NCBI GenBank assembly: GCA_000165345.1
Contig: CM000432.1
Span: 64,001 to 128,000, forward strand
Length of the DNA: 64,000 nt
Reading direction: 5' to 3'
Within the stretch, counting starts at the first letter, position 1, and each line of letters starts with the position of its first letter. The position numbers and the translations under genes were made by a program. The notes under the pieces are model-generated. The model had not been told where the DNA came from. It was given only the letters and a program-made list of their open reading frames with translations, and did not search any database. Shown one piece after another: positions 55,046 through 64,000 of this stretch.

Positions 55046-58000
55046 TTATTTTTGTAAAGCAGCAGATATTCTCCTCTCTAATTTTTTAGCAATAACTTGC
55101 ATCTGCTGATCTAGGAATTGTTTCCAAGCGATTGCCTCTTCCTGTTTATTGTGGGAAGATGCTGAGAATTCTGAGTCCCATTGCTTCATTCCTTTCTTCC
55201 ATTGCCTTAAACTATGGAGTTCGTGTTCCAGTAACTTTCTGGCAATATCCTTGTTTGGCACAACAGAATTGCTTGTGACCGACCCACTATTTGGACGCAA
55301 ACTTTGGAGAATTGATGCAATCTTGGAAGCTTGAGCGTTAATTTGGTTTTGCTCATGAACGCTACCTCCCATAACTGATGATGAAATGGATGGGTAATGT
55401 AAGTTTGTATTGTTCATAAGTGAGCCTGGTGGTGGAGGATTAATACTGGAAGAGGCTGGAAGATTGTTGGTGTTCATATTGGGGCCATAACCATTTGATA
55501 TACAGTAATCCATATTTAAGTTATTGTCATATATTTGAGAAGAATTCGTATTCGTTACTGCATTGTTATGAGCTGGTTGGATGAAGCTAATCCCAGTTAC
55601 GCCATTAGTTTTCTCTCCTGGTCTTGAAATGTTTCCATTAAACTTTTCATCAGTTTGAACGGTTCTGTTTATATTTGATTCATTACTCCTCTTTAATTCA
55701 TTCAATTCGTTCTTAATGTCCGTAAGTAGTGGCATTAAGACCATAGGTGACTCTGGATACATTATAGGGGAGTTGTTTGTTAATGTTGGGAGGATTTGCT
55801 GATTTGAAGAGGAGTCACTTGTTGATATGTAGGTAGACTTTAAGAGTGTTGGTACTCTTGCATCCTGTGGTTTTGACATTTCAGGAACTACTTGAACTTC
55901 ATTTGGATAACCTGGCAGAGCTGAAGAGTCACAGGCATGCTCTCCTACATCAGACCCTCCCATATTTTTAACTGCAGGAGAAGTAGAACTTGCTCTTATC
56001 CTAGAGCTCTTACTCTTTTCTGTGAATTGCCTTAGCTCCTTTAAAAGATTCTTCTCTCGGCTTTCTGTGGCCTGGAGCTTCTCATATAGCTTCTTCATGG
56101 TTTTTTCCAAAGAACCGATTACATCACTGTTCTTTTTATATACTTCTGAAATTTTTGCCTCGTTTATATTTTCGTTTGCGGTTGAACCCTTATTCGACTC
56201 TCCCCCATTCATGCAGGGTGTCTGAACGCTGGCAGTATTCTGTCTTATATCCCTACTATCATGTGGCCCAGCTCCGTCTGATGAGCCACAACCAAGAGAG
56301 CTTCCAATACTATTAATTTGCTTATGGAGATGCAAGATTGTATAAAGGAGTTCTTCTTTTTGTTTCATCTCTTCTTGAATTTGCTGTTGGAGAACTTGGC
56401 AAGTCTTCTGAGTTTCTCTTTCAATATCCCGGTTCCTCAATTCTAAGTCTTCAATCATTCTGCGTAGCTCACAAATTTCCTTATCCTTATTGGAAAAGCT
56501 CTTTCCTTCATATAACTCTTTTTCACGACTCTTTATCACCCCCTCCATCTCTTGTAAAAGGTCCTCACTTCTTTGAATAGCCAGCTCTCGCTCAAAAAGT
56601 TGTTTATCTCTTTCTTCAATCCTAATCAACTCATCAAGGAGAGGTTTTCTCTCCAACTGGAGTTGTCTCTCCTTCTCATCCAACTCTCTCTCGCGATCTT
56701 TAAGCTCCAAATCTCTCTCCTTCAAATCTGCCTCTCTACGATCCATGGAACGCTCTCTCTCGATCAATATAGCCTCTCTTCTACCTAAATTGGACTCTTT
56801 AGTTCTATGTGTGCTCTCTTTCTCCTCTATTTTTACCTCCCTTGCAAGGAGACTTTCCTCAACAAGCTTGGTTCTCTGCCCTAAACTGCTCATTTCTCTC
56901 TCCAAATCATTCAAACCCATCTCCCTCTCTAGTAAGCCCTTCTCCTTCTCCATTAACTTATTCTCACGGTCAATTAACTTATTTTCTTTTTCAACCAACT
57001 TACTCTCACGCTCTATAAACTTCCCTTCCCTATCTTTAAGTCTGCTTTCCTTTTCATACAACTGTCCTTCTCTCTCCTCAAGAGATCTTCTCTCAGACTC
57101 GCTCAGAGCAGCTCTCTGACTATTCAATAGAGCCTCTCTGCCATCCAGCTCTTTTTCTCTTGTTGAAATATTCTTCTGACGCTTATCCAACTCAAACCAA
57201 AACTCTTCAAACTCCTTTTGGCGGCTCTCAAGCTCATTAATATAAACATCAAATTCCTTTTGCTTATTCTCCAAATCCACCTTCTGTGAGCTTAACAAGC
57301 TCTCCAAATCTTTTACTGATTTTTCTCTCTCCTCAAGCTCTCTTAGACGAGACTCCTGATGAGCCACTTGAGACCTCCTTGCATCTTGGCTTTCTCGCTC
57401 CTCCTTTAATGCTTTTCTGCTTTCATCCAACTCCTTTCTGATATCTCTCAATTCCATTTCCAAACTTCTAAGTTGTGATTCATATTGCAGGCTCATCTTC
57501 TGTAAACTATCATTATTTGCATGCTCCAACTTTACATATATTTGGCGCTCATCCTCTTCAATCTGTTTTGACTTTACCGCCAAAGCCTTCTCCAGGCTTA
57601 CAAGCTCGTCCTTGAGTGAATCTAGGGACTTCTTTTTTTCGTTAAGTTCAAGTTTCTGAGACCTAAGTTCAATACCTTGTTTATCTAGTTCGTCTTTTTG
57701 AGAGTTAAGCTCTGCTCTGAGTTTCTCTGTTTCAGCTTTTCCGGCATCAACCTCTTTCATTTTGTGTTCCAATTCACTCTTAATTTGCTCCAAGTTTCTT
57801 CTTTCAGCCTCTATTTCGCCACGATTTTTCTTTACCTCCTTCTTCAATCGATCATATTCAGCCTTACCATTCTCCAGCTCTAATTTTGCATTTTCGATTT
57901 CAGCTAGCCTCTTTTTATAGTCTGAATCCTGTTCTAACTGAACCTTTTCCATATTCATTGAATAATCTTCAACCATCCTGTTGAAACTTTGTTCTCTTAA

Positions 58001-59077
58001 ATTTAGATCATCAACATATGACTCAAATTCCTTCTGCTTTTCCATAATTTCTTTCTCTAGGTTGGAGACTGTTAAGGATCTTTGGTCGAGATCTTTAGCT
58101 TTGTCATTCAGATTCTGCTCCTGGAGCTTCAGTTTTTCTTCCAGATTAGATAGAGATGCTTCTTTTCCATCTAAGTATCCTTCTTTAGATACAATTGAGA
58201 TTTCTCTCTCGTGCAGCTCTATTTCTTTTTCACTGGTAACTCCTGCTGTAGACTCTAAATTATGAAACCTATTCTTCCATGATTCAATTTCTTTACACTT
58301 AATTTGAACAGTATCAATTAGCTCTTCCAAGGAAGAGTACTCATTTGATTGCAAAGTTTTGTTCATCTCAGCCAAGCTCGTCTTTACGTTAGTATACTGC
58401 TCTAAAAGTGATTCATGTTCAATCTTTTCAATCGCCAGCTTTTCATTCAAATCCTGAATCACCTCATCATATTCTTTCTTAACATTTTGTAAATCGCTGA
58501 CACCCAGATCTCTAGCTTCCTTTAGAGAATTAATTTCATTAATTAACTTTTGTTTATCAGACTTATATTCTGAAATCACATCCTTGTAACTATCCAGCTC
58601 GTTTTCTAGTTGTGTTTTTTCTAACTCAAGTTCTTCAGCACGTTTATTATTTTGTATTGAGCTTTCTAATTCATCTATTCTATTCAGTGCTTCCTTATAT
58701 AAATTCCAGTAATTATCAGCTTCTTCAGAATTAACTGTATTGTTGATATCAGTCTGCTCAGAAAGCAATTTTTCTAGCCTATCCAATTCCTGAATAAGCT
58801 GGGAATTTCTTTCTTTCTCTAAATTTAGTTCAGTCTCAAACCTTCTACTTTGAGATTCTGCCACTGATAATTCATCCCTACTTTTGTGATACAATGAGCG
58901 CTCAGTTTCTACTTGGTGTTGTAAATCTTCCATAGCATTTCTAATCAATATCATAAACCTAGCACTATCAGGGTCATTCTCATCCAGTACCCCCTGTGAA
59001 AGCTTTATATCCGGCGCATTAGTGCCAGTCTTCAGACTGTCATGTTCCATCTCCTTTATATCCTGATTAATAGGCAT
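55046..59077 (-). CDS. Large coiled-coil protein (1343 aa), function unknown.
   Basis: About 900 residues of uninterrupted E/K/R/L heptad-type sequence with internal quasi-repeats (ERE.KL.DRE.KL.EKE...). Ser/Asn-rich, non-coiled C-terminal third. Confidence 0.5.
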   Translation of the reverse strand: MPINQDIKEMEHDSLKTGTNAPDIKLSQGVLDENDPDSARFMILIRNAMEDLQHQVETERSLYHKSRDELSVAESQSRRFETELNLEKERNSQLIQELDRLEKLLSEQTDINNTVNSEEADNYWNLYKEALNRIDELESSIQNNKRAEELELEKTQLENELDSYKDVISEYKSDKQKLINEINSLKEARDLGVSDLQNVKKEYDEVIQDLNEKLAIEKIEHESLLEQYTNVKTSLAEMNKTLQSNEYSSLEELIDTVQIKCKEIESWKNRFHNLESTAGVTSEKEIELHEREISIVSKEGYLDGKEASLSNLEEKLKLQEQNLNDKAKDLDQRSLTVSNLEKEIMEKQKEFESYVDDLNLREQSFNRMVEDYSMNMEKVQLEQDSDYKKRLAEIENAKLELENGKAEYDRLKKEVKKNRGEIEAERRNLEQIKSELEHKMKEVDAGKAETEKLRAELNSQKDELDKQGIELRSQKLELNEKKKSLDSLKDELVSLEKALAVKSKQIEEDERQIYVKLEHANNDSLQKMSLQYESQLRSLEMELRDIRKELDESRKALKEERESQDARRSQVAHQESRLRELEEREKSVKDLESLLSSQKVDLENKQKEFDVYINELESRQKEFEEFWFELDKRQKNISTREKELDGREALLNSQRAALSESERRSLEEREGQLYEKESRLKDREGKFIERESKLVEKENKLIDRENKLMEKEKGLLEREMGLNDLEREMSSLGQRTKLVEESLLAREVKIEEKESTHRTKESNLGRREAILIERERSMDRREADLKERDLELKDRERELDEKERQLQLERKPLLDELIRIEERDKQLFERELAIQRSEDLLQEMEGVIKSREKELYEGKSFSNKDKEICELRRMIEDLELRNRDIERETQKTCQVLQQQIQEEMKQKEELLYTILHLHKQINSIGSSLGCGSSDGAGPHDSRDIRQNTASVQTPCMNGGESNKGSTANENINEAKISEVYKKNSDVIGSLEKTMKKLYEKLQATESREKNLLKELRQFTEKSKSSRIRASSTSPAVKNMGGSDVGEHACDSSALPGYPNEVQVVPEMSKPQDARVPTLLKSTYISTSDSSSNQQILPTLTNNSPIMYPESPMVLMPLLTDIKNELNELKRSNESNINRTVQTDEKFNGNISRPGEKTNGVTGISFIQPAHNNAVTNTNSSQIYDNNLNMDYCISNGYGPNMNTNNLPASSSINPPPPGSLMNNTNLHYPSISSSVMGGSVHEQNQINAQASKIASILQSLRPNSGSVTSNSVVPNKDIARKLLEHELHSLRQWKKGMKQWDSEFSASSHNKQEEAIAWKQFLDQQMQVIAKKLERRISAALQK

Positions 59078-59317
59078 GGAGTATTCTGCTATTTAATACT
59101 TGACCATCCGAAACAGGTTTCTTGTTTATTCTAATACTTGAAAAAAAAATTTGGGTAAGATAAGGATTTTCTTACCCTTCAGGTTAGAAGAATTTATTAT
59201 TATTAATGTTTCTTCTCTACCTAATTTTTATATTTAAATATATTTTCCCTCTTGCTCCTTTTCGTTTTTATTAGCTATTACCCCACACTGTATGTCTATA
59301 TTGGAGTTAAATCAGTT

Positions 59318-59340
59318 CAGCGCCAAATTTTGCATGCATG
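59318..59340. promoter_or_regulatory. Composite cagCGCCAAattt + TGCATGCATG element upstream of the coiled-coil gene; a similar TGCATGCATG lies at 51654..51663 upstream of PA200.
   Basis: TGCATGCA is the widely conserved apicomplexan AP2-type promoter motif, seen here at both loci within ~250-550 bp of minus-strand ATGs. Confidence 0.4.
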
Positions 59341-61282
59341 TGATGCCCGCCTTAAATTAGGGCAACTTTGCATATAATTAGGGAGCAAGAATATTAATTT
59401 AAGATTAAACAGATAATACTAAAAAATAAATTAAGCATATGAAAATGTGTTGGAATATTTAAATAAAAAGGATTCAATATATTAGAATGTTTTTCTGAAA
59501 AAATGAGTTGGGTATATTGGCCTTGATTAAAATAAGAAAGTATCTACTCTGAAAGAATAAGTTGTTAAAACTGCATCTACGAAATTGAATAAACTTTTGG
59601 AATAAAAACTAGCTATTTTAATTAAACAAGAAACCCCCACAAAAAATATATGTGGAACTCACATGCACTAAAAAGGATAAGTTGCAGGTACCGTTGTAAT
59701 AATTTGCATGGAACTGTGTAGGTATCGAAACAATTGTGGTATCTTATTAAAAGCGCAATTGATCAGTGTGAAAGAGCTTAACACCCACTATTATGCTTAA
59801 TGCACAACCCCCTAAAAGCTAGAAAACGAGCAATACCAAATAAATCATGATATCTAACACAAATAAAAAAGGTTTGTCAAGTTAGACGTTACGTCTTGTA
59901 GAGCATTGCACCTATACAGGACGTTACGATGACGTCGTCCCAAAGAGACAGAGACAAAATAAGATGCAGCTTCCTGATGTAAGAATCTTTCCAACTCCGT
60001 TGTCCATCTAAGAGCGAAATCATGAATCACAATCTCAATTTTTTCTGAAAAAAATCAATGTTTGGATGATATGCAATAAATTTTATTTGATCAGTAATTT
60101 TATATTTAGCGCTTCATTTTCGTGAGATTTGTGTTGCGCTATTATTTCTTGATCCAAATTCATGCCCTCCAGTAATGCTGATTTTAAATATGTTTGTCAA
60201 CTATGTCCAATAAATTTGGTTTGTTACCTTAATTTTGAAGCTATCTATATCAATAAAACTGAGTAAAGGTAAATGATGTGAATATATTAACATTTACAAC
60301 AGTTCAAAAATGTTTTAACTATGAAGAAACGATACAAAGATATTATGGGTTTATTAATTAATTCAAGGTGTTTTTCCAATTTTACTTATCGCAATATTTG
60401 ATAATTTAATATCATTAAATCAATTGTAAATCATCAAATTTGAAACTAAAGTTTGGCGCCAATTGATTTTTTTTGCCACCATTTTTTAGAGGTTACAGGT
60501 GAAATTGGAGGATGAAGTGAACCATATAACACCGAATATTGAGGGATTGTAGAATCTTATTTGCTATATTCTCAATTTGTTACAATTACTGCTTCCCTAT
60601 TCATCCAGCCTAGCCTTTCTTTTGTTTATAATCATACCTCTTTAACAATCCACATGGTTGCCGCCAAGCATGTTCCGATATTGCCAATAGTGCAAACTTC
60701 CACATACCCATGGCGGCACATTTGTTTACGTTGTGTCTACATGTGGCGCGCCAGCGGTTGTATTGTTATTAGAATTAATTGAATTAGCAAGGGAATCTTA
60801 ATAATATTTTGAAAATAAAATCAAAGTAGAATAGGAAGTGTTTGTGGGCAAGGTAAGGATATTGAAACTGGAATATATTCATATTTTGGAGAGTGATCAA
60901 ATCCTGAGCACTTCCCCACCTGTGCATTTGAACAGCATAGAGCATATTTTTGTATTATCTATAATATCAAGTTGCTGAGGTGAAAATTAAGTGGTAGCAT
61001 AATAGGAAGAAGTGATCGTTTCATTATACTTAATCTTTTCTAATACAACAACTATTCTTTATATCAGTTTATGCAAGAATTCTTGGTTTTCTTCTGAAAC
61101 GGACTATTTTGTGTATTATAAATACAAATCAACTCGATGATTTATTGTTGAAGCAACTATCTGTGGTAATAAGTATAATATATGTTTTGATTAACCCGAT
61201 CAATTAGGGGTTTTGCTTTAAACTTTAGAAATAATCCTTGATTGAGAAATCAGGCGAGGATAAGAATTTTTACATTACTATA

Positions 61283-64000
61283 ATGAATGGTGGTAATAAC
61301 ATCCTACCAACAATGTCAACTTATGGAAGGGAAATGGACCACCACCACTACAATGGAGTTCCTTCATCAGGGAATTCTAATATGTTAACAGGCTATCCTA
61401 TTTTATACCAAAACAACCACCACAATCACCCGGCAGGAGACTTGCTTACATTGCAAATGCAGCTTCAGGGAAATCCATCAAATAACGAAAATGAAAACAC
61501 TTTAGCAGCCTTACAGAGAAACTGGATCGCCTTGCAGCAGAATAATGGTAATGTTGGTGGAACAGGAACTGGGACCAATAATGGTATGTTGCATTCATCA
61601 ATTCATCACCCATCTGCTATGACATTACAAAATGACGATATGGGATATATGAGGAATTTGATTCCAATTGGTGGAAGCAACTCATCCCCGCTCCATTCTA
61701 ACCAATCTACTCTTTTGGATTCATTAAAGTTTGGAGGTGGTTTGGAGCCCCCACAAGTTTCTCAATATGGCCATCATCATCATTTGGCAAACGGGAACTT
61801 GCAGCCAAGTATTTTGGACAATGGAATATTAGGGAACAACGTGGGAATTCCAGGTATATGCCGTAATAATCCAATGAATGTTGGAACATCTCCTAATGGT
61901 AGATTACAGATGCAAATGAATCCTAATAACGGTCTGGGTGTGAATGTAGATATGGTTCCAAACAATGGAATGCTCCCAATGAATTGTAATAATTCCATTG
62001 GTGGAAATGTAATTGTAAATACAAATCCAAACAATAATATTGAATGGCAAGGAGGAATACCAATTCGTAACATTCCTGATCTAATGACAATGTTGGATCT
62101 TTCTGATATACCACCTCATGTACAAATTCCGAAATACTACGAGGGCATTAAAATATCTCTAGGAGAGGCAGGGCGTGAAATTTTAAGATGTTATATTAAT
62201 CAAAGGGGTATTAGGGGAAAGTTTATGAGTTCTAGTAATCTTCAGCAATTATTGAGAGTTGCACATCAATGTGGACTATGGAATGCAGCAGTAAGGTTGC
62301 ATTTGGAGTTTATTGGAGAGATTCCTATGACAGCTAGTCATGCTGAAATGAGGAAGTATAAGAGCCTTCAGACAAAGCGTAGGTTATCAAAAAGAATCTC
62401 AGTTTTGTCTAAGTTTGGTGCTCCTGTTGTTCGTAGAGCTGATGGAGAGGAAACTATTGAATATAGAGATGGTATGAAGCTTTCTCTTGGGGTTGATGGG
62501 AGGAAATTACTATTAAAACGAATTAGAGAAACCAGAAGTTCAAGAGAAAATGAGATAAATAATCTGTTTTCCAAATATGGATTAAAATATAGTCAACTTA
62601 GAAATGCTACTATCCATGAGTTGTGTAGAATGGCTTATGTTTGTGGTCTTTGGGAAGAGGCTGTTAAGCTCCATTTTCAACATATTAGGAAGAAAGCCCA
62701 TGAAAATACCTCAAATCAGCAGGAATCTGGAAGTGATCTTGATAGTGAAATGGACTTGAATAAGGATAGAGGAGACGACGAAATGATATCTAACAACTTT
62801 TTGCAGCAGCTTCATACTCCTGGTATTGATATATTAAATGTGAATGGTGCAAGTAACCCTGGAGGTATGGCAGGAGGTAATGCAGGAGGGATTTCTCAAA
62901 ATCCTGTCATGGGAGCTATGGGTGCTGATCCTGTTCATGTTGGAAATTCTGCTCCACCAAATGCAGCTCATCATGTGCATCAGCATCCCTCAATACATCC
63001 AGTTTCACATATTCAGTCTGGATTGGGTCGCTTTGGTATGTCGTCTGTTGGAGGATCTGTTCCAAATGGTGCTGGAAATAAGTCTGGTAGTGAGGGTGGA
63101 AATGCAAATTCGAATGTTAATACTAATAGAGGCATATCTGGTGCGAATTCAATGATTGGAATTGTAGATAATAATGGTGGTATTCATCCATCAATTGTAC
63201 TATCTAATAATGGGGGGTCAGCTGGTAATAATGCTGATACTCATGCATTAACAGGAGACCATTTGAATTATGATGATTATAGGAATTATATTCTAGATGG
63301 AGGAAATAATGCTGGAAATATTGATAATACTGGTTTGTCATCTATGAGAAGTGGAGCAATGACAAATATAAGTAGTCGTATTATTAGGCATGATGCAAGA
63401 GGAGGTAATATGGGAACGTCTTCAAATGGTATTGATAAGGTATTGGGTAGTAACCCTAATGCTGTGAATGGGACAGGAGGTAATAGCTCTGGAAATGGCG
63501 TTAAGAGTGTTGGTGGAAATAATCCAGATGTGGATGATTTGAATAGAAATAATATCTTAACCGGTATTGAAAATGATGGTCTAATCGGTATGTCATCAAC
63601 AGGTGCTTTAGGAGCTTTTGTTGGTTCGAGTTCTTCAGGAACAAGAAATGGTCTTTCAAATTATGATAGTATTGGTGTTCCAACAACATCAAGTACAGGA
63701 TATGATGATTATTCATTATTATCTGCGTCATTAAGAAAGAGAGGAAAGGTTAATAATATGGTTTCAGGTCTTGGAGGAGTAGATGACTCTAATTCTAGTG
63801 ACTTGACAACTCATAATATTGTCTCACACCCTAATACATCTTCATTTGTTATGGAGACAATATCAGGTATTCTAGGAGATGAACCTTTAGGTAACAATAA
63901 TATTGGTGATAAAGTGAATAATTATAAAGGTAACAATTTGTCCTCAGTCCTGGGAAATGATATTGGGATTTGTCAAAACAATGAAGCTCCTCAATTATCA
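61283..64000 (+). CDS. Large N/G/S-rich protein with a twice-repeated 'CGLW' motif core. 3'-partial (no stop before the window end) and absent from the ORF track.
   Basis: Translated codon-by-codon from ATG 61283 to 64000 without a stop (≥906 aa); the in-frame stop upstream is at 61232-61234. The core (aa ~290-470) contains two related ~35-aa motifs: ...NLQQLLRVAHQCGLWNAAVRLHLEFIGE... and ...IHELCRMAYVCGLWEEAVKLHFQHIRK..., separated by a basic stretch (KRRLSKRISVLSKFGAPVVRRADGEETIEYRDGMKLSLGVDGRKLLLKRIRETR). Confidence 0.6.
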   Translation, partial: MNGGNNILPTMSTYGREMDHHHYNGVPSSGNSNMLTGYPILYQNNHHNHPAGDLLTLQMQLQGNPSNNENENTLAALQRNWIALQQNNGNVGGTGTGTNNGMLHSSIHHPSAMTLQNDDMGYMRNLIPIGGSNSSPLHSNQSTLLDSLKFGGGLEPPQVSQYGHHHHLANGNLQPSILDNGILGNNVGIPGICRNNPMNVGTSPNGRLQMQMNPNNGLGVNVDMVPNNGMLPMNCNNSIGGNVIVNTNPNNNIEWQGGIPIRNIPDLMTMLDLSDIPPHVQIPKYYEGIKISLGEAGREILRCYINQRGIRGKFMSSSNLQQLLRVAHQCGLWNAAVRLHLEFIGEIPMTASHAEMRKYKSLQTKRRLSKRISVLSKFGAPVVRRADGEETIEYRDGMKLSLGVDGRKLLLKRIRETRSSRENEINNLFSKYGLKYSQLRNATIHELCRMAYVCGLWEEAVKLHFQHIRKKAHENTSNQQESGSDLDSEMDLNKDRGDDEMISNNFLQQLHTPGIDILNVNGASNPGGMAGGNAGGISQNPVMGAMGADPVHVGNSAPPNAAHHVHQHPSIHPVSHIQSGLGRFGMSSVGGSVPNGAGNKSGSEGGNANSNVNTNRGISGANSMIGIVDNNGGIHPSIVLSNNGGSAGNNADTHALTGDHLNYDDYRNYILDGGNNAGNIDNTGLSSMRSGAMTNISSRIIRHDARGGNMGTSSNGIDKVLGSNPNAVNGTGGNSSGNGVKSVGGNNPDVDDLNRNNILTGIENDGLIGMSSTGALGAFVGSSSSGTRNGLSNYDSIGVPTTSSTGYDDYSLLSASLRKRGKVNNMVSGLGGVDDSNSSDLTTHNIVSHPNTSSFVMETISGILGDEPLGNNNIGDKVNNYKGNNLSSVLGNDIGICQNNEAPQLS

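What the first reader, a model, noticed from the sequence alone, without database searches (positions are those of the whole stretch)
61283..64000. Unlisted ≥906-aa open reading frame with an internally duplicated 'CGLW' motif: candidate novel regulatory protein
The ORF track omits this frame because it has no stop inside the window. Codon-by-codon translation from ATG 61283 to 64000 shows no stop. The protein is mostly Asn/Gly/Ser-rich low complexity but has a compact basic core. That core holds two related ~35-aa motifs (LLRVAHQCGLWNAAVRLHLEFI / ELCRMAYVCGLWEEAVKLHFQHI), each predicted helix-turn-helix-like, flanking a Lys/Arg-rich beta-like stretch. I cannot match the duplicated motif to any domain family I know (not AP2, Myb/SANT, zinc finger or SWIRM by eye). 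Low-complexity flanks plus a duplicated small basic domain, preceded by an unusually long (2.2 kb) motif-rich upstream region, fit an apicomplexan nucleic-acid-binding regulator. It may be an undescribed DNA- or RNA-binding fold.
Basis: partly seen in the sequence, partly recalled or inferred. Interest (0 to 1): 0.75.

Follow-up and report, generated by a model that had tools for sequence, protein, structure and literature searches.

The report
Undescribed tandem helical domain, Cryptosporidium regulator
The open frame is a real Cryptosporidium parvum gene, already annotated as a "hypothetical protein"; its small basic core is a duplicated all-helical domain found in no domain or structure library, is almost unchanged across the genus, and is most likely a new nucleic-acid-binding regulator domain, though binding is untested.

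Summary
ATG 61283 to 64000 is open for 906 codons. It is the 5' three-quarters of a 1187-aa C. parvum chromosome 4 gene (EAK87676.1/Q5CQJ3, "hypothetical protein", probably cgd4_490).

The "CGLW" duplication is real but larger than described. There are two homologous modules of about 95 aa (BLASTP E=3e-11). Together they form a basic core, aa 265-480 (pI 9.9), between Asn/Gly/Ser-rich acidic flanks.

The core matches nothing in Pfam or in PDB sequences, and Foldseek finds nothing. An exhaustive HMMER search found 64 relatives. They come from Cryptosporidium, gregarines, coccidia (Eimeria, Neospora; a follow-up search added Toxoplasma and Cystoisospora), the chromerids Chromera and Vitrella, and unidentified protists. 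All named ones are uncharacterised.

Between C. parvum and C. muris the core differs at 5 of 223 residues, while 117 of 223 codons carry synonymous changes. The neighbouring ribosomal protein L18 is only 83% identical.

Best reading: a lineage-specific nuclear regulator with a new tandem HTH-like domain. DNA binding is inferred, not shown. An 86-nt ultraconserved structured element lies 1.3 kb upstream.

The parts
61283..64000 (+). First 906 codons of a 1187-codon intronless gene (C. parvum chr 4 hypothetical protein EAK87676.1/Q5CQJ3, probably cgd4_490). The stop lies 846 nt beyond the window end.
   Evidence: Exact protein identity to public C. parvum gene calls.
61283..62074 (+). N-terminal region, aa 1-264. 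It is Asn/Gly/Ser/His-rich but holds genus-conserved motifs, e.g. NHPAGDLLTLQMQLQ...TLAALQRNWIALQQN. Function unknown; possibly a partner-binding or coiled segment.
   Evidence: C. parvum versus C. muris alignment; composition.
62075..62722 (+). Basic core domain, aa 265-480 (pI 9.9, net charge +15). It is a tandem of two homologous all-alpha modules and is the only part conserved outside the genus.
62132..62413 (+). Module 1, aa 284-377. It holds an extended Y-Y-E-G-I-K-I-S-L-G segment and helices at aa 294-307, 313-316, 320-329 and 333-344. It ends in a long basic helix, aa 351-377 (nt 62333-62413, K/R 9 of 27), which may act as a nuclear localisation signal or contact nucleic acid.
62270..62281 (+). 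First CGLW motif, aa 330-333. It forms the 3-residue turn between helix 320-329 and helix 333-344. W333 is at least 80% conserved across the family.
62414..62722 (+). Module 2, aa 378-480. It holds a beta-hairpin (aa 382-392) and helices at aa 403-420, 422-431, 444-453 and 457-483. Between helices it carries the most conserved polar motif, G-L-K-Y-S-x-L-R-N-A-T (aa 433-443).
62642..62653 (+). Second CGLW motif, aa 454-457. It forms the turn between helix 444-453 and helix 457-483. W457 is invariant in alignment A2.
62723..64000 (+). Start of the acidic Asn/Gly/Ser-rich C-terminal region, aa 481-1187 (pI 4.7, net charge -40). It is not alignable to C. muris except for the last ~40 residues, which lie outside the window. 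Candidate activation or interaction region.
59078..61282 (.). Intergenic region of 2.2 kb, shared divergently with the 1343-aa gene on the minus strand. It is the longest gap between ORFs of at least 150 aa in the window. It contains E2F-like GGCGCC / TGGCGC sites (59320, 60454-60456, 60744-60748) and one TGCATGCA (59331).
59874..59959 (+). An 86-nt ultraconserved block, 94-96% identical in C. felis, C. muris and C. andersoni, with unalignable flanks. It contains GACGTTACG twice and folds into a closed stem-loop on the + strand. Candidate structured RNA, 5'UTR element or composite cis-element.
   Evidence: No Rfam match.

Best explanation
The gene encodes a lineage-specific nuclear regulator, present in apicomplexans and chromerids. 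Its working part is a previously undescribed basic domain of about 215 aa, made of two tandem homologous all-helical modules joined by a long Lys/Arg-rich helix and a beta-hairpin.

Proposed mechanism (inferred):
- Each module is a compact 4-5-helix bundle of helix-turn-helix type.
- The two modules and the basic linker grip nucleic acid, most likely double-stranded DNA, as a bipartite reading head. This would work like POU or tandem Myb domains.
- The acidic low-complexity tails recruit partners.

Shown here: the gene is real; the duplication is real; the domain family exists and is absent from Pfam and PDB; the fold is confidently predicted and helical; the domain is basic throughout the family; it is under extreme protein-level purifying selection.

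Inferred only: nuclear location, nucleic-acid binding, which helices do the reading, and any regulatory role.
For: - Real gene with conserved synteny (PSME4-Nup54-RPL18-1343aa-gene) in C. muris.
- Family of 64 relatives at E<1e-3 in an exhaustive HMMER scan. Named members are from Vitrella, Chromera, C. andersoni, C. muris, C. felis, Gregarina, Filipodium, Eimeria and Neospora, plus Toxoplasma (TGDOM2_263390) and Cystoisospora from a follow-up search. All are 'hypothetical'.
- No Pfam family on any member over this region.
- AlphaFold2: pLDDT 92.1 for the tandem and 87.5 for module 2 alone, with the same helices in both models.
- Both CGLW segments fit the classical HTH pattern of Ala5, Gly9, hydrophobic 10 and hydrophobic 15 (read directly from the sequence).
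- Core pI is 9.9, and 8.9-10.4 in all 21 aligned homologues. The flanks are acidic. K/R is at least 75% conserved at ten columns.
- Constraint: 5 of 223 amino-acid differences against 117 of 223 synonymously changed codons between C. parvum and C. muris. The neighbours RPL18, Nup54 and the 1343-aa protein are 83%, 56% and 34% identical.
- A small conserved domain island inside a long low-complexity protein is the usual build of apicomplexan transcription factors such as ApiAP2 proteins (established knowledge).
Against: - Foldseek against the PDB gives nothing below E=3.8.
- hhalign of the module 2 profile against an XRE/POU-specific profile gives probability 0.3%. That profile was checked against the PDB.
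- Under the lambda-like helix mapping, module 1 lacks the helix that would be HTH helix 2 (a 15-residue gap).
- Module 2 has two Glu at the start of the helix after CGLW.
- No localisation, expression or binding data were found. The Toxoplasma orthologue number is absent from the held hyperLOPIT supplements, and no paper mentions any orthologue identifier.
- No informative domain co-occurrence.
Confidence: 0.5

Rival explanations
1. The tandem helical domain is a protein-protein interaction or scaffolding module, for instance a death-fold-like or other helical bundle that docks the protein into a chromatin or other multiprotein complex. It would have no direct nucleic-acid contact. Its basic charge would serve as a nuclear localisation signal or bind acidic partners such as histone chaperones or its own acidic tails.
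For: - Extreme conservation is also typical of hub proteins with many partners.
- There is no sequence link to any DNA-binding family.
- The conserved Trp, Leu and Ala of the CGLW segment look like core-packing residues rather than base-reading residues.
Against: - Death folds are six-helix bundles and score below the HTH domains.
- The domain is uniformly basic across very divergent homologues (pI 8.9-10.4), with conserved Arg and Lys.
- No partner-type domains co-occur.
Confidence: 0.25
2. The domain binds RNA rather than DNA, and the protein is a post-transcriptional regulator of mRNA stability or translation. The conserved structured 86-nt element upstream could be a cognate RNA.
For: - The domain is basic and helical, with a long Arg/Lys helix that resembles arginine-rich RNA-binding helices.
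- Weak scattered Pfam hits to KH_2 and Nop16 occur in 3 of 21 members, all insignificant.
- Translational control is prominent in Cryptosporidium female stages (title of PMC11078545, listed).
- A structured conserved element lies on the same strand upstream.
Against: - The Pfam hits are noise.
- The link to the upstream element is pure speculation.
Confidence: 0.15
3. The frame is an artefact: a chance long ORF or a low-complexity pseudo-gene with no functional product.
For: - The composition of the flanks is low-complexity.
- One C. hominis orthologue was automatically mis-named 'PE_PGRS'.
Against: - 1187 codons are open in DNA of about 35% G+C.
- Orthologues are syntenic in four other species.
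- 5 of 223 amino-acid changes against 117 of 223 synonymous codon changes.
- Homologues exist in chromerids and coccidia.
Confidence: 0.01

Closest known systems
Lambda-repressor-like (Cro/C1, XRE) helix-turn-helix DNA-binding domains, including the POU-specific domain and the HNF1 N-terminal domain
   Same: - Small all-alpha bundle of 4-5 short helices with a 3-residue Gly-containing turn.
- The domain is basic.
   Different: - No sequence-profile similarity (Pfam none at E<=10; hhalign probability 0.3%).
- Extra features: an N-terminal extended Y-x-E-G-x-x-L-x-L-G segment or beta-hairpin, and a very long last helix.
- Module 1 lacks one helix.
Bipartite or tandem eukaryotic DNA-binding domains (POU, paired, tandem Myb R2R3)
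   Same: Two helical sub-domains in tandem on one chain, joined by a basic linker. This suggests a two-headed grip on nucleic acid.
   Different: - Here the two heads are homologous to each other but to neither a homeodomain nor a Myb repeat.
- No Pfam Homeodomain, Pou, PAX or Myb hit.
ApiAP2 transcription factors of Apicomplexa
   Same: - Same protein build: a short, highly conserved basic domain island in a long low-complexity protein whose flanks are poorly conserved.
- Same phyletic range (apicomplexans and chromerids).
- Long upstream regions.
   Different: The AP2 domain is a three-stranded sheet packed on one helix, whereas this domain is all-helical. There is no AP2 Pfam hit.
Death-fold domains (PYD, CARD, DED)
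   Different: The scores are lower than for HTH domains. Death folds have a six-helix Greek-key topology and are not typically strongly basic. There is no sequence similarity.

Membership tests
Lambda-repressor-like / XRE (Cro/C1-type) HTH domain | Sequence-profile match to HTH_3/XRE-type profiles | tested here: not met
   No HTH family in Pfam scans of 21 domain sequences at E<=10. hhalign of the module 2 profile (A3) against an XRE/POU-specific profile (A4) gives probability 0.3%. A4 was validated against 434 Cro, 434 and P22 repressors, HipB, SinR, lambda cI and Oct-1 PDB chains.
Lambda-repressor-like / XRE (Cro/C1-type) HTH domain | Five-helix globular fold superimposable on known members | tested here: inconclusive
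Lambda-repressor-like / XRE (Cro/C1-type) HTH domain | Binds DNA through the second helix of the HTH in the major groove | not testable with these tools
   Needs EMSA, PBM, SELEX or a complex structure.
POU-type bipartite domain | POU-specific domain followed by a homeodomain | tested here: not met
   No Pou or Homeodomain Pfam hit. The two modules are paralogous to each other, not two different folds.
ApiAP2 | AP2 domain (about 60 aa, three beta-strands plus one helix; Pfam AP2) | tested here: not met
   No AP2 hit on the protein or on any of 64 homologues. The model is all-alpha apart from one short hairpin.
Myb/SANT | Tri-helical repeats of about 50 aa with regularly spaced Trp; Pfam Myb_DNA-binding or SANT | tested here: not met
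Death fold (PYD/CARD/DED) | Six-helix antiparallel bundle | tested here: inconclusive
TPR repeat | Pfam TPR profile above the gathering score; repeated 34-aa helix pairs | tested here: not met
   A single TPR_7 fragment at aa 454-470 scores 13-17.7 bits against a cut-off of 27.9. It appears in 1 of 21 homologues only.
PE_PGRS (name attached to C. hominis XP_666663.1) | Mycobacterial PE domain plus Gly-Ala repeats | tested here: not met
   No PE Pfam hit. The name is an automatic artefact of Gly/Asn-rich composition.

The most novel reading that the evidence does not exclude
The tandem 'CGLW' domain defines a second lineage-specific family of sequence-specific DNA-binding transcription factors, alongside ApiAP2. 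The family would be shared by chromerids and apicomplexans, and cgd4_490 would be a core developmental or cell-cycle regulator of Cryptosporidium. The 86-nt ultraconserved structured element in its own upstream region would be part of its control, either as an autoregulatory site cluster (two GACGTTACG copies) or as a regulatory RNA.
Probability: 0.25. Interest if true: 0.85.

Novelty: new variant of a known kind. Interest (0 to 1): 0.62.

Why it matters
Apicomplexan parasites are known for having very few recognised transcription-factor families. The 2025 review of Cryptosporidium gene regulation (PMC12246861) treats ApiAP2, E2F/DP, Myb and C2H2 zinc-finger proteins, and none of its eight cgd4 gene mentions is this gene.

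This domain is confidently folded and basic. It is more conserved across the genus than the neighbouring ribosomal protein L18 and is shared with coccidia, gregarines and free-living chromerids. That makes it a concrete, testable candidate for a missing regulator class.

It also gives a defined construct (aa 265-489) for binding assays and a tractable Toxoplasma orthologue (locus-tag number 263390) for genetics. If it proves to be a protein-interaction module instead, it still marks an essential-looking, unstudied, parasite-lineage protein.

Tried and rejected
- Word-indexed homologue search with the core alone found nothing. The exhaustive HMMER scan was needed.
- Pfam gave nothing on the protein, on 64 full-length homologues, on 21 domain segments at E<=10, or on 9 long homologues. 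The only hits were noise: TPR_7, F-box-like, Nop16, KH_2, and one TLDc in a Vitrella paralogue.
- A PDB sequence-profile search gave one insignificant hit, 7bpn at E=0.24.
- Foldseek against the PDB gave nothing below E=3.8.
- The AFDB50 library was not available.
- hhalign against the XRE profile was negative.
- Full-text literature searches for cgd4_490, cpbgf_400490, CPATCC_001528, Q5CQJ3, CMU_012600, cand_010520, NCLIV/BN1204_024540 and TGME49/TGGT1/TGVEG_263390 found no papers. A search for '263390' plus 'Toxoplasma' listed papers that look unrelated by title.
- Supplements of Oberstaller 2013 and of the Toxoplasma hyperLOPIT paper do not contain the identifiers. No supplements are held for the SWI/SNF paper.
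- Rfam and tRNA scans of the window found nothing.
- A coding reading of the 86-nt upstream element was rejected. The short ATG frame in C. parvum is cut by a stop in C. muris.
- Covariation in that element could not be tested, because all predicted paired positions are invariant in the four species.
- The 'PE_PGRS' name of a C. hominis orthologue was rejected as an artefact of composition.
Full report
**1. The observation**

Translating window 61283-64000 on the + strand gives 906 codons with no stop. The ORF lister leaves it out only because the frame runs off the window.

The window is Cryptosporidium parvum chromosome 4.
- The neighbouring genes encode RPL18, a Nup54-like protein, a PSME4/Blm10-like protein and a 1343-aa protein.
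- The RPL18 and 1343-aa proteins occur with exactly these sequences on 1.1-Mb C. parvum chromosomes.
- On those contigs the frame continues to 1187 aa and a stop.
- That exact protein is EAK87676.1 / Q5CQJ3 / QOY41938.1, "hypothetical protein" of C. parvum. Orthologues 1182-1186 aa long are called in C. hominis and C. tyzzeri.
- The C. hominis tag CHM_4g490 suggests the classical identifier cgd4_490. This is an inference.

So the gene is real and publicly annotated, but uncharacterised. No paper in the searchable library mentions any of its identifiers.

**2. Anatomy**

The duplication is larger than described. Each repeat starts with an extended Y-x-[ED]-G-[IM]-K-[IL]-S-L-G-x-x-G-R segment and ends after the helix that follows CGLW.
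- The two halves align at E=3e-11, 31% identity over 75 columns, with one 15-residue gap.
- HMMs of either module find the other module in the same proteins across the family, at about 1e-10 for the Cryptosporidium orthologues.

Composition:

| Region | pI | Net charge | Asn+Gly+Ser |
|---|---|---|---|
| Core, aa 265-480 | 9.9 | +15 | 18% |
| N-terminal flank, aa 1-264 | 6.2 | -5 | 39% |
| C-terminal flank, aa 481-1187 | 4.7 | -40 | 41% |

**3. Relatives**

A word-indexed search found nothing. An exhaustive HMMER scan of 1.84 billion representatives found 64 proteins at E<1e-3 and 10 at E<1e-30.

Named members:
- Cryptosporidium: C. felis, C. muris and C. andersoni orthologues, plus a second C. 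andersoni paralogue (cand_001380).
- Chromerids: at least four Vitrella brassicaformis proteins and one Chromera velia protein.
- Gregarines: Gregarina and Filipodium.
- Coccidia: Eimeria flavescens and Neospora caninum BN1204_024540. A follow-up search with the Neospora protein added Cystoisospora suis and Toxoplasma gondii (TGDOM2_263390).

Other observations on the family:
- A set of ~350-400-aa proteins comes from very compact, unidentified eukaryotic genomes in metagenomes.
- A single-module form sits at a syntenic locus (tRNA synthetase - X - DHHC) in three compact assemblies. The one profiled has about 33% G+C. I suspect these are Cryptosporidium but could not confirm it.
- Every named member is "hypothetical".
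- No member has a Pfam domain over this region, and there is no informative co-occurring domain.
- I did not see Plasmodium or piroplasm names, but only about 20 of the hits could be named, so absence there is not established.

**4. Constraint**

Between C. parvum and C. muris, aa 255-477 differ at 5 of 223 positions, while 117 of the 223 codons carry synonymous changes. C. felis differs at 1 of 223.

In the same syntenic block the neighbours are much less conserved: RPL18 83%, Nup54 56% and the 1343-aa protein 34% identical. The domain is therefore under stronger protein-level purifying selection than the adjacent ribosomal protein.

The N-terminal 264 residues are low-complexity in composition but also align well, with 72% identity over aa 1-519. 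The C-terminal 700 residues do not align, except for a short tail.

**5. Fold**

With only 21 aligned sequences AlphaFold2 gives mean pLDDT 92.1 (pTM 0.63) for aa 265-489.
- Module 1: helices at aa 294-307, 313-316, 320-329 and 333-344.
- Linker: a long basic helix, aa 351-377, then a beta-hairpin, aa 382-392.
- Module 2: helices at aa 403-420, 422-431, 444-453 and 457-483.

Module 2 modelled alone with 37 sequences gives the same elements, plus a 4-residue helix in the G-L-K-Y-S-Q-L-R-N-A-T segment (pLDDT 87.5, pTM 0.75). The "Lys/Arg-rich beta-like stretch" is thus mainly a helix.

Fold searches:
- Foldseek against the PDB finds nothing (best E=3.8).

This is a recurrent hint, not proof. A profile-profile comparison of module 2 with an XRE/POU-specific profile is flatly negative, with probability 0.3%. 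I wrote the sequences for that profile from memory and then checked them against the PDB.

Read directly from the sequence, both CGLW segments fit the textbook HTH pattern of Ala5, Gly9, hydrophobic 10 and hydrophobic 15. However, the same pattern also describes the helix 4-turn-helix 5 hairpin of XRE domains. In that alternative mapping the reading element would be the highly conserved G-L-K-Y-S-E-L-R-N-A-T segment. Module 1, which lacks the preceding helix, would then be a reduced copy. I cannot decide between the two mappings without residue-level superpositions.

**6. Interpretation**

Several facts together best fit a nucleic-acid-binding nuclear regulator with a two-headed HTH-like domain (confidence about 0.5):
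- a basic, tandem, helical domain;
- conserved Arg/Lys columns: R298, R302, K313, R338, K360, R367, the column aligned with L368, R384, R407 and R440;
- acidic low-complexity tails;
- extreme constraint;
- a long, partly conserved upstream region.

The build (a small conserved domain island inside a long, poorly conserved, low-complexity protein) is the one familiar from ApiAP2 factors. That comparison rests on established knowledge.

Rivals:
- a protein-protein docking module (0.25);
- an RNA-binding domain (0.15);
- an artefact reading, which the conservation pattern excludes.

I would not file the domain as a member of the XRE/lambda-repressor family. The sequence criterion was tested and failed, and the structural criterion is inconclusive. 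AP2, Myb/SANT, POU, TPR and the stray "PE_PGRS" label are all rejected.

**7. Upstream region**

The 2.2-kb gap to the divergently transcribed 1343-aa gene is the longest gap between ORFs of at least 150 aa in the window. It is also long in C. muris, at 1.7 kb.
- E2F-like TGGCGC/GCGCCA sites are about 5 times denser here than in the window as a whole, but the counts are small: 5 sites.
- There is one TGCATGCA.

The striking feature is an 86-nt block, 59874-59959.
- It is 94-96% identical in C. felis, C. muris and C. andersoni, while its flanks are unalignable between C. parvum and C. muris. For comparison, about half of the codons in the adjacent coding core carry synonymous changes.
- It contains GACGTTACG twice. 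Counting one-mismatch copies, the window has 4 matches against 0.83 expected.
- It folds into the same closed stem-loop on the + strand in C. parvum and C. muris, with z about -3.1 in both.
- In the C. parvum-C. muris comparison the substitutions fall in predicted loops. Paired positions never vary in the four species, so covariation gives no evidence either way.
- It matches no Rfam family and is not a conserved ORF.

It could be a small RNA, a 5'UTR element or a composite cis-element. Any link to the protein is speculation.

**8. Verdict**

The gene is not unannotated, but its domain appears to be undescribed. It is absent from the 2025 Pfam copy, from PDB sequences and from the searched literature. 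It defines a conserved family of apicomplexans and chromerids.

I rate it a new variant of a known kind, namely an HTH-like basic helical regulator domain, and give it interest 0.62. The main uncertainty is that nucleic-acid binding is inferred rather than shown.

Noticed in passing
window 59874-59959 (+): An 86-nt ultraconserved intergenic block, 94-96% identical in C. felis, C. muris and C. andersoni, with unalignable flanks. It has two GACGTTACG copies and the same stable + strand stem-loop (z about -3.1) in C. parvum and C. muris. No Rfam match and not a conserved ORF. Candidate small RNA, 5'UTR element or cis-element.
   Followed up: partly
window 59320, 60454-60456, 60744-60748; 59331: E2F-like GCGCCA / TGGCGC / TGGCGCGCCA sites are about 5 times denser in the 2.2-kb upstream region than in the window overall (5 sites). 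There is one palindromic TGCATGCA (AP2-type motif). The numbers are too small for statistics.
   Followed up: partly
L010, L011, L012, L013 (loci of P0049, P0051, P0046): A single-module relative of the domain (Y-Y-E-G-F-K-L-P-L-G-D-L-G-R ... Y-V-C-D-V-F instead of CGLW) sits between a class II tRNA synthetase gene and a DHHC gene in three compact assemblies. The one profiled (L013) has about 33% G+C. It is probably a second Cryptosporidium paralogue lineage, but the species were not confirmed.
   Followed up: partly
L009 and L014 (ENA metagenome contigs): Family members of about 350-400 aa, with R-E-R-D-T in place of G-x-E-G-R, lie in extremely compact eukaryotic genomes. L009 has about 44% G+C. 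L014 has intergenic gaps under 100 bp and carries actin and CFAP58 genes. The organisms are unidentified, so the family may reach beyond known apicomplexans and chromerids.
   Followed up: no
window 55046-59077 (-): The divergently transcribed 1343-aa neighbour has no Pfam domain, apart from a faint CRWN_N note on record. It is only 34% identical to its C. muris orthologue, which contrasts sharply with the near-invariant core of the gene under study.
   Followed up: no
C. hominis XP_666663.1 (cluster): One orthologue carries the name 'PE_PGRS', a mycobacterial family. This is evidently an automatic mis-annotation caused by the Gly/Asn-rich composition.
   Followed up: yes
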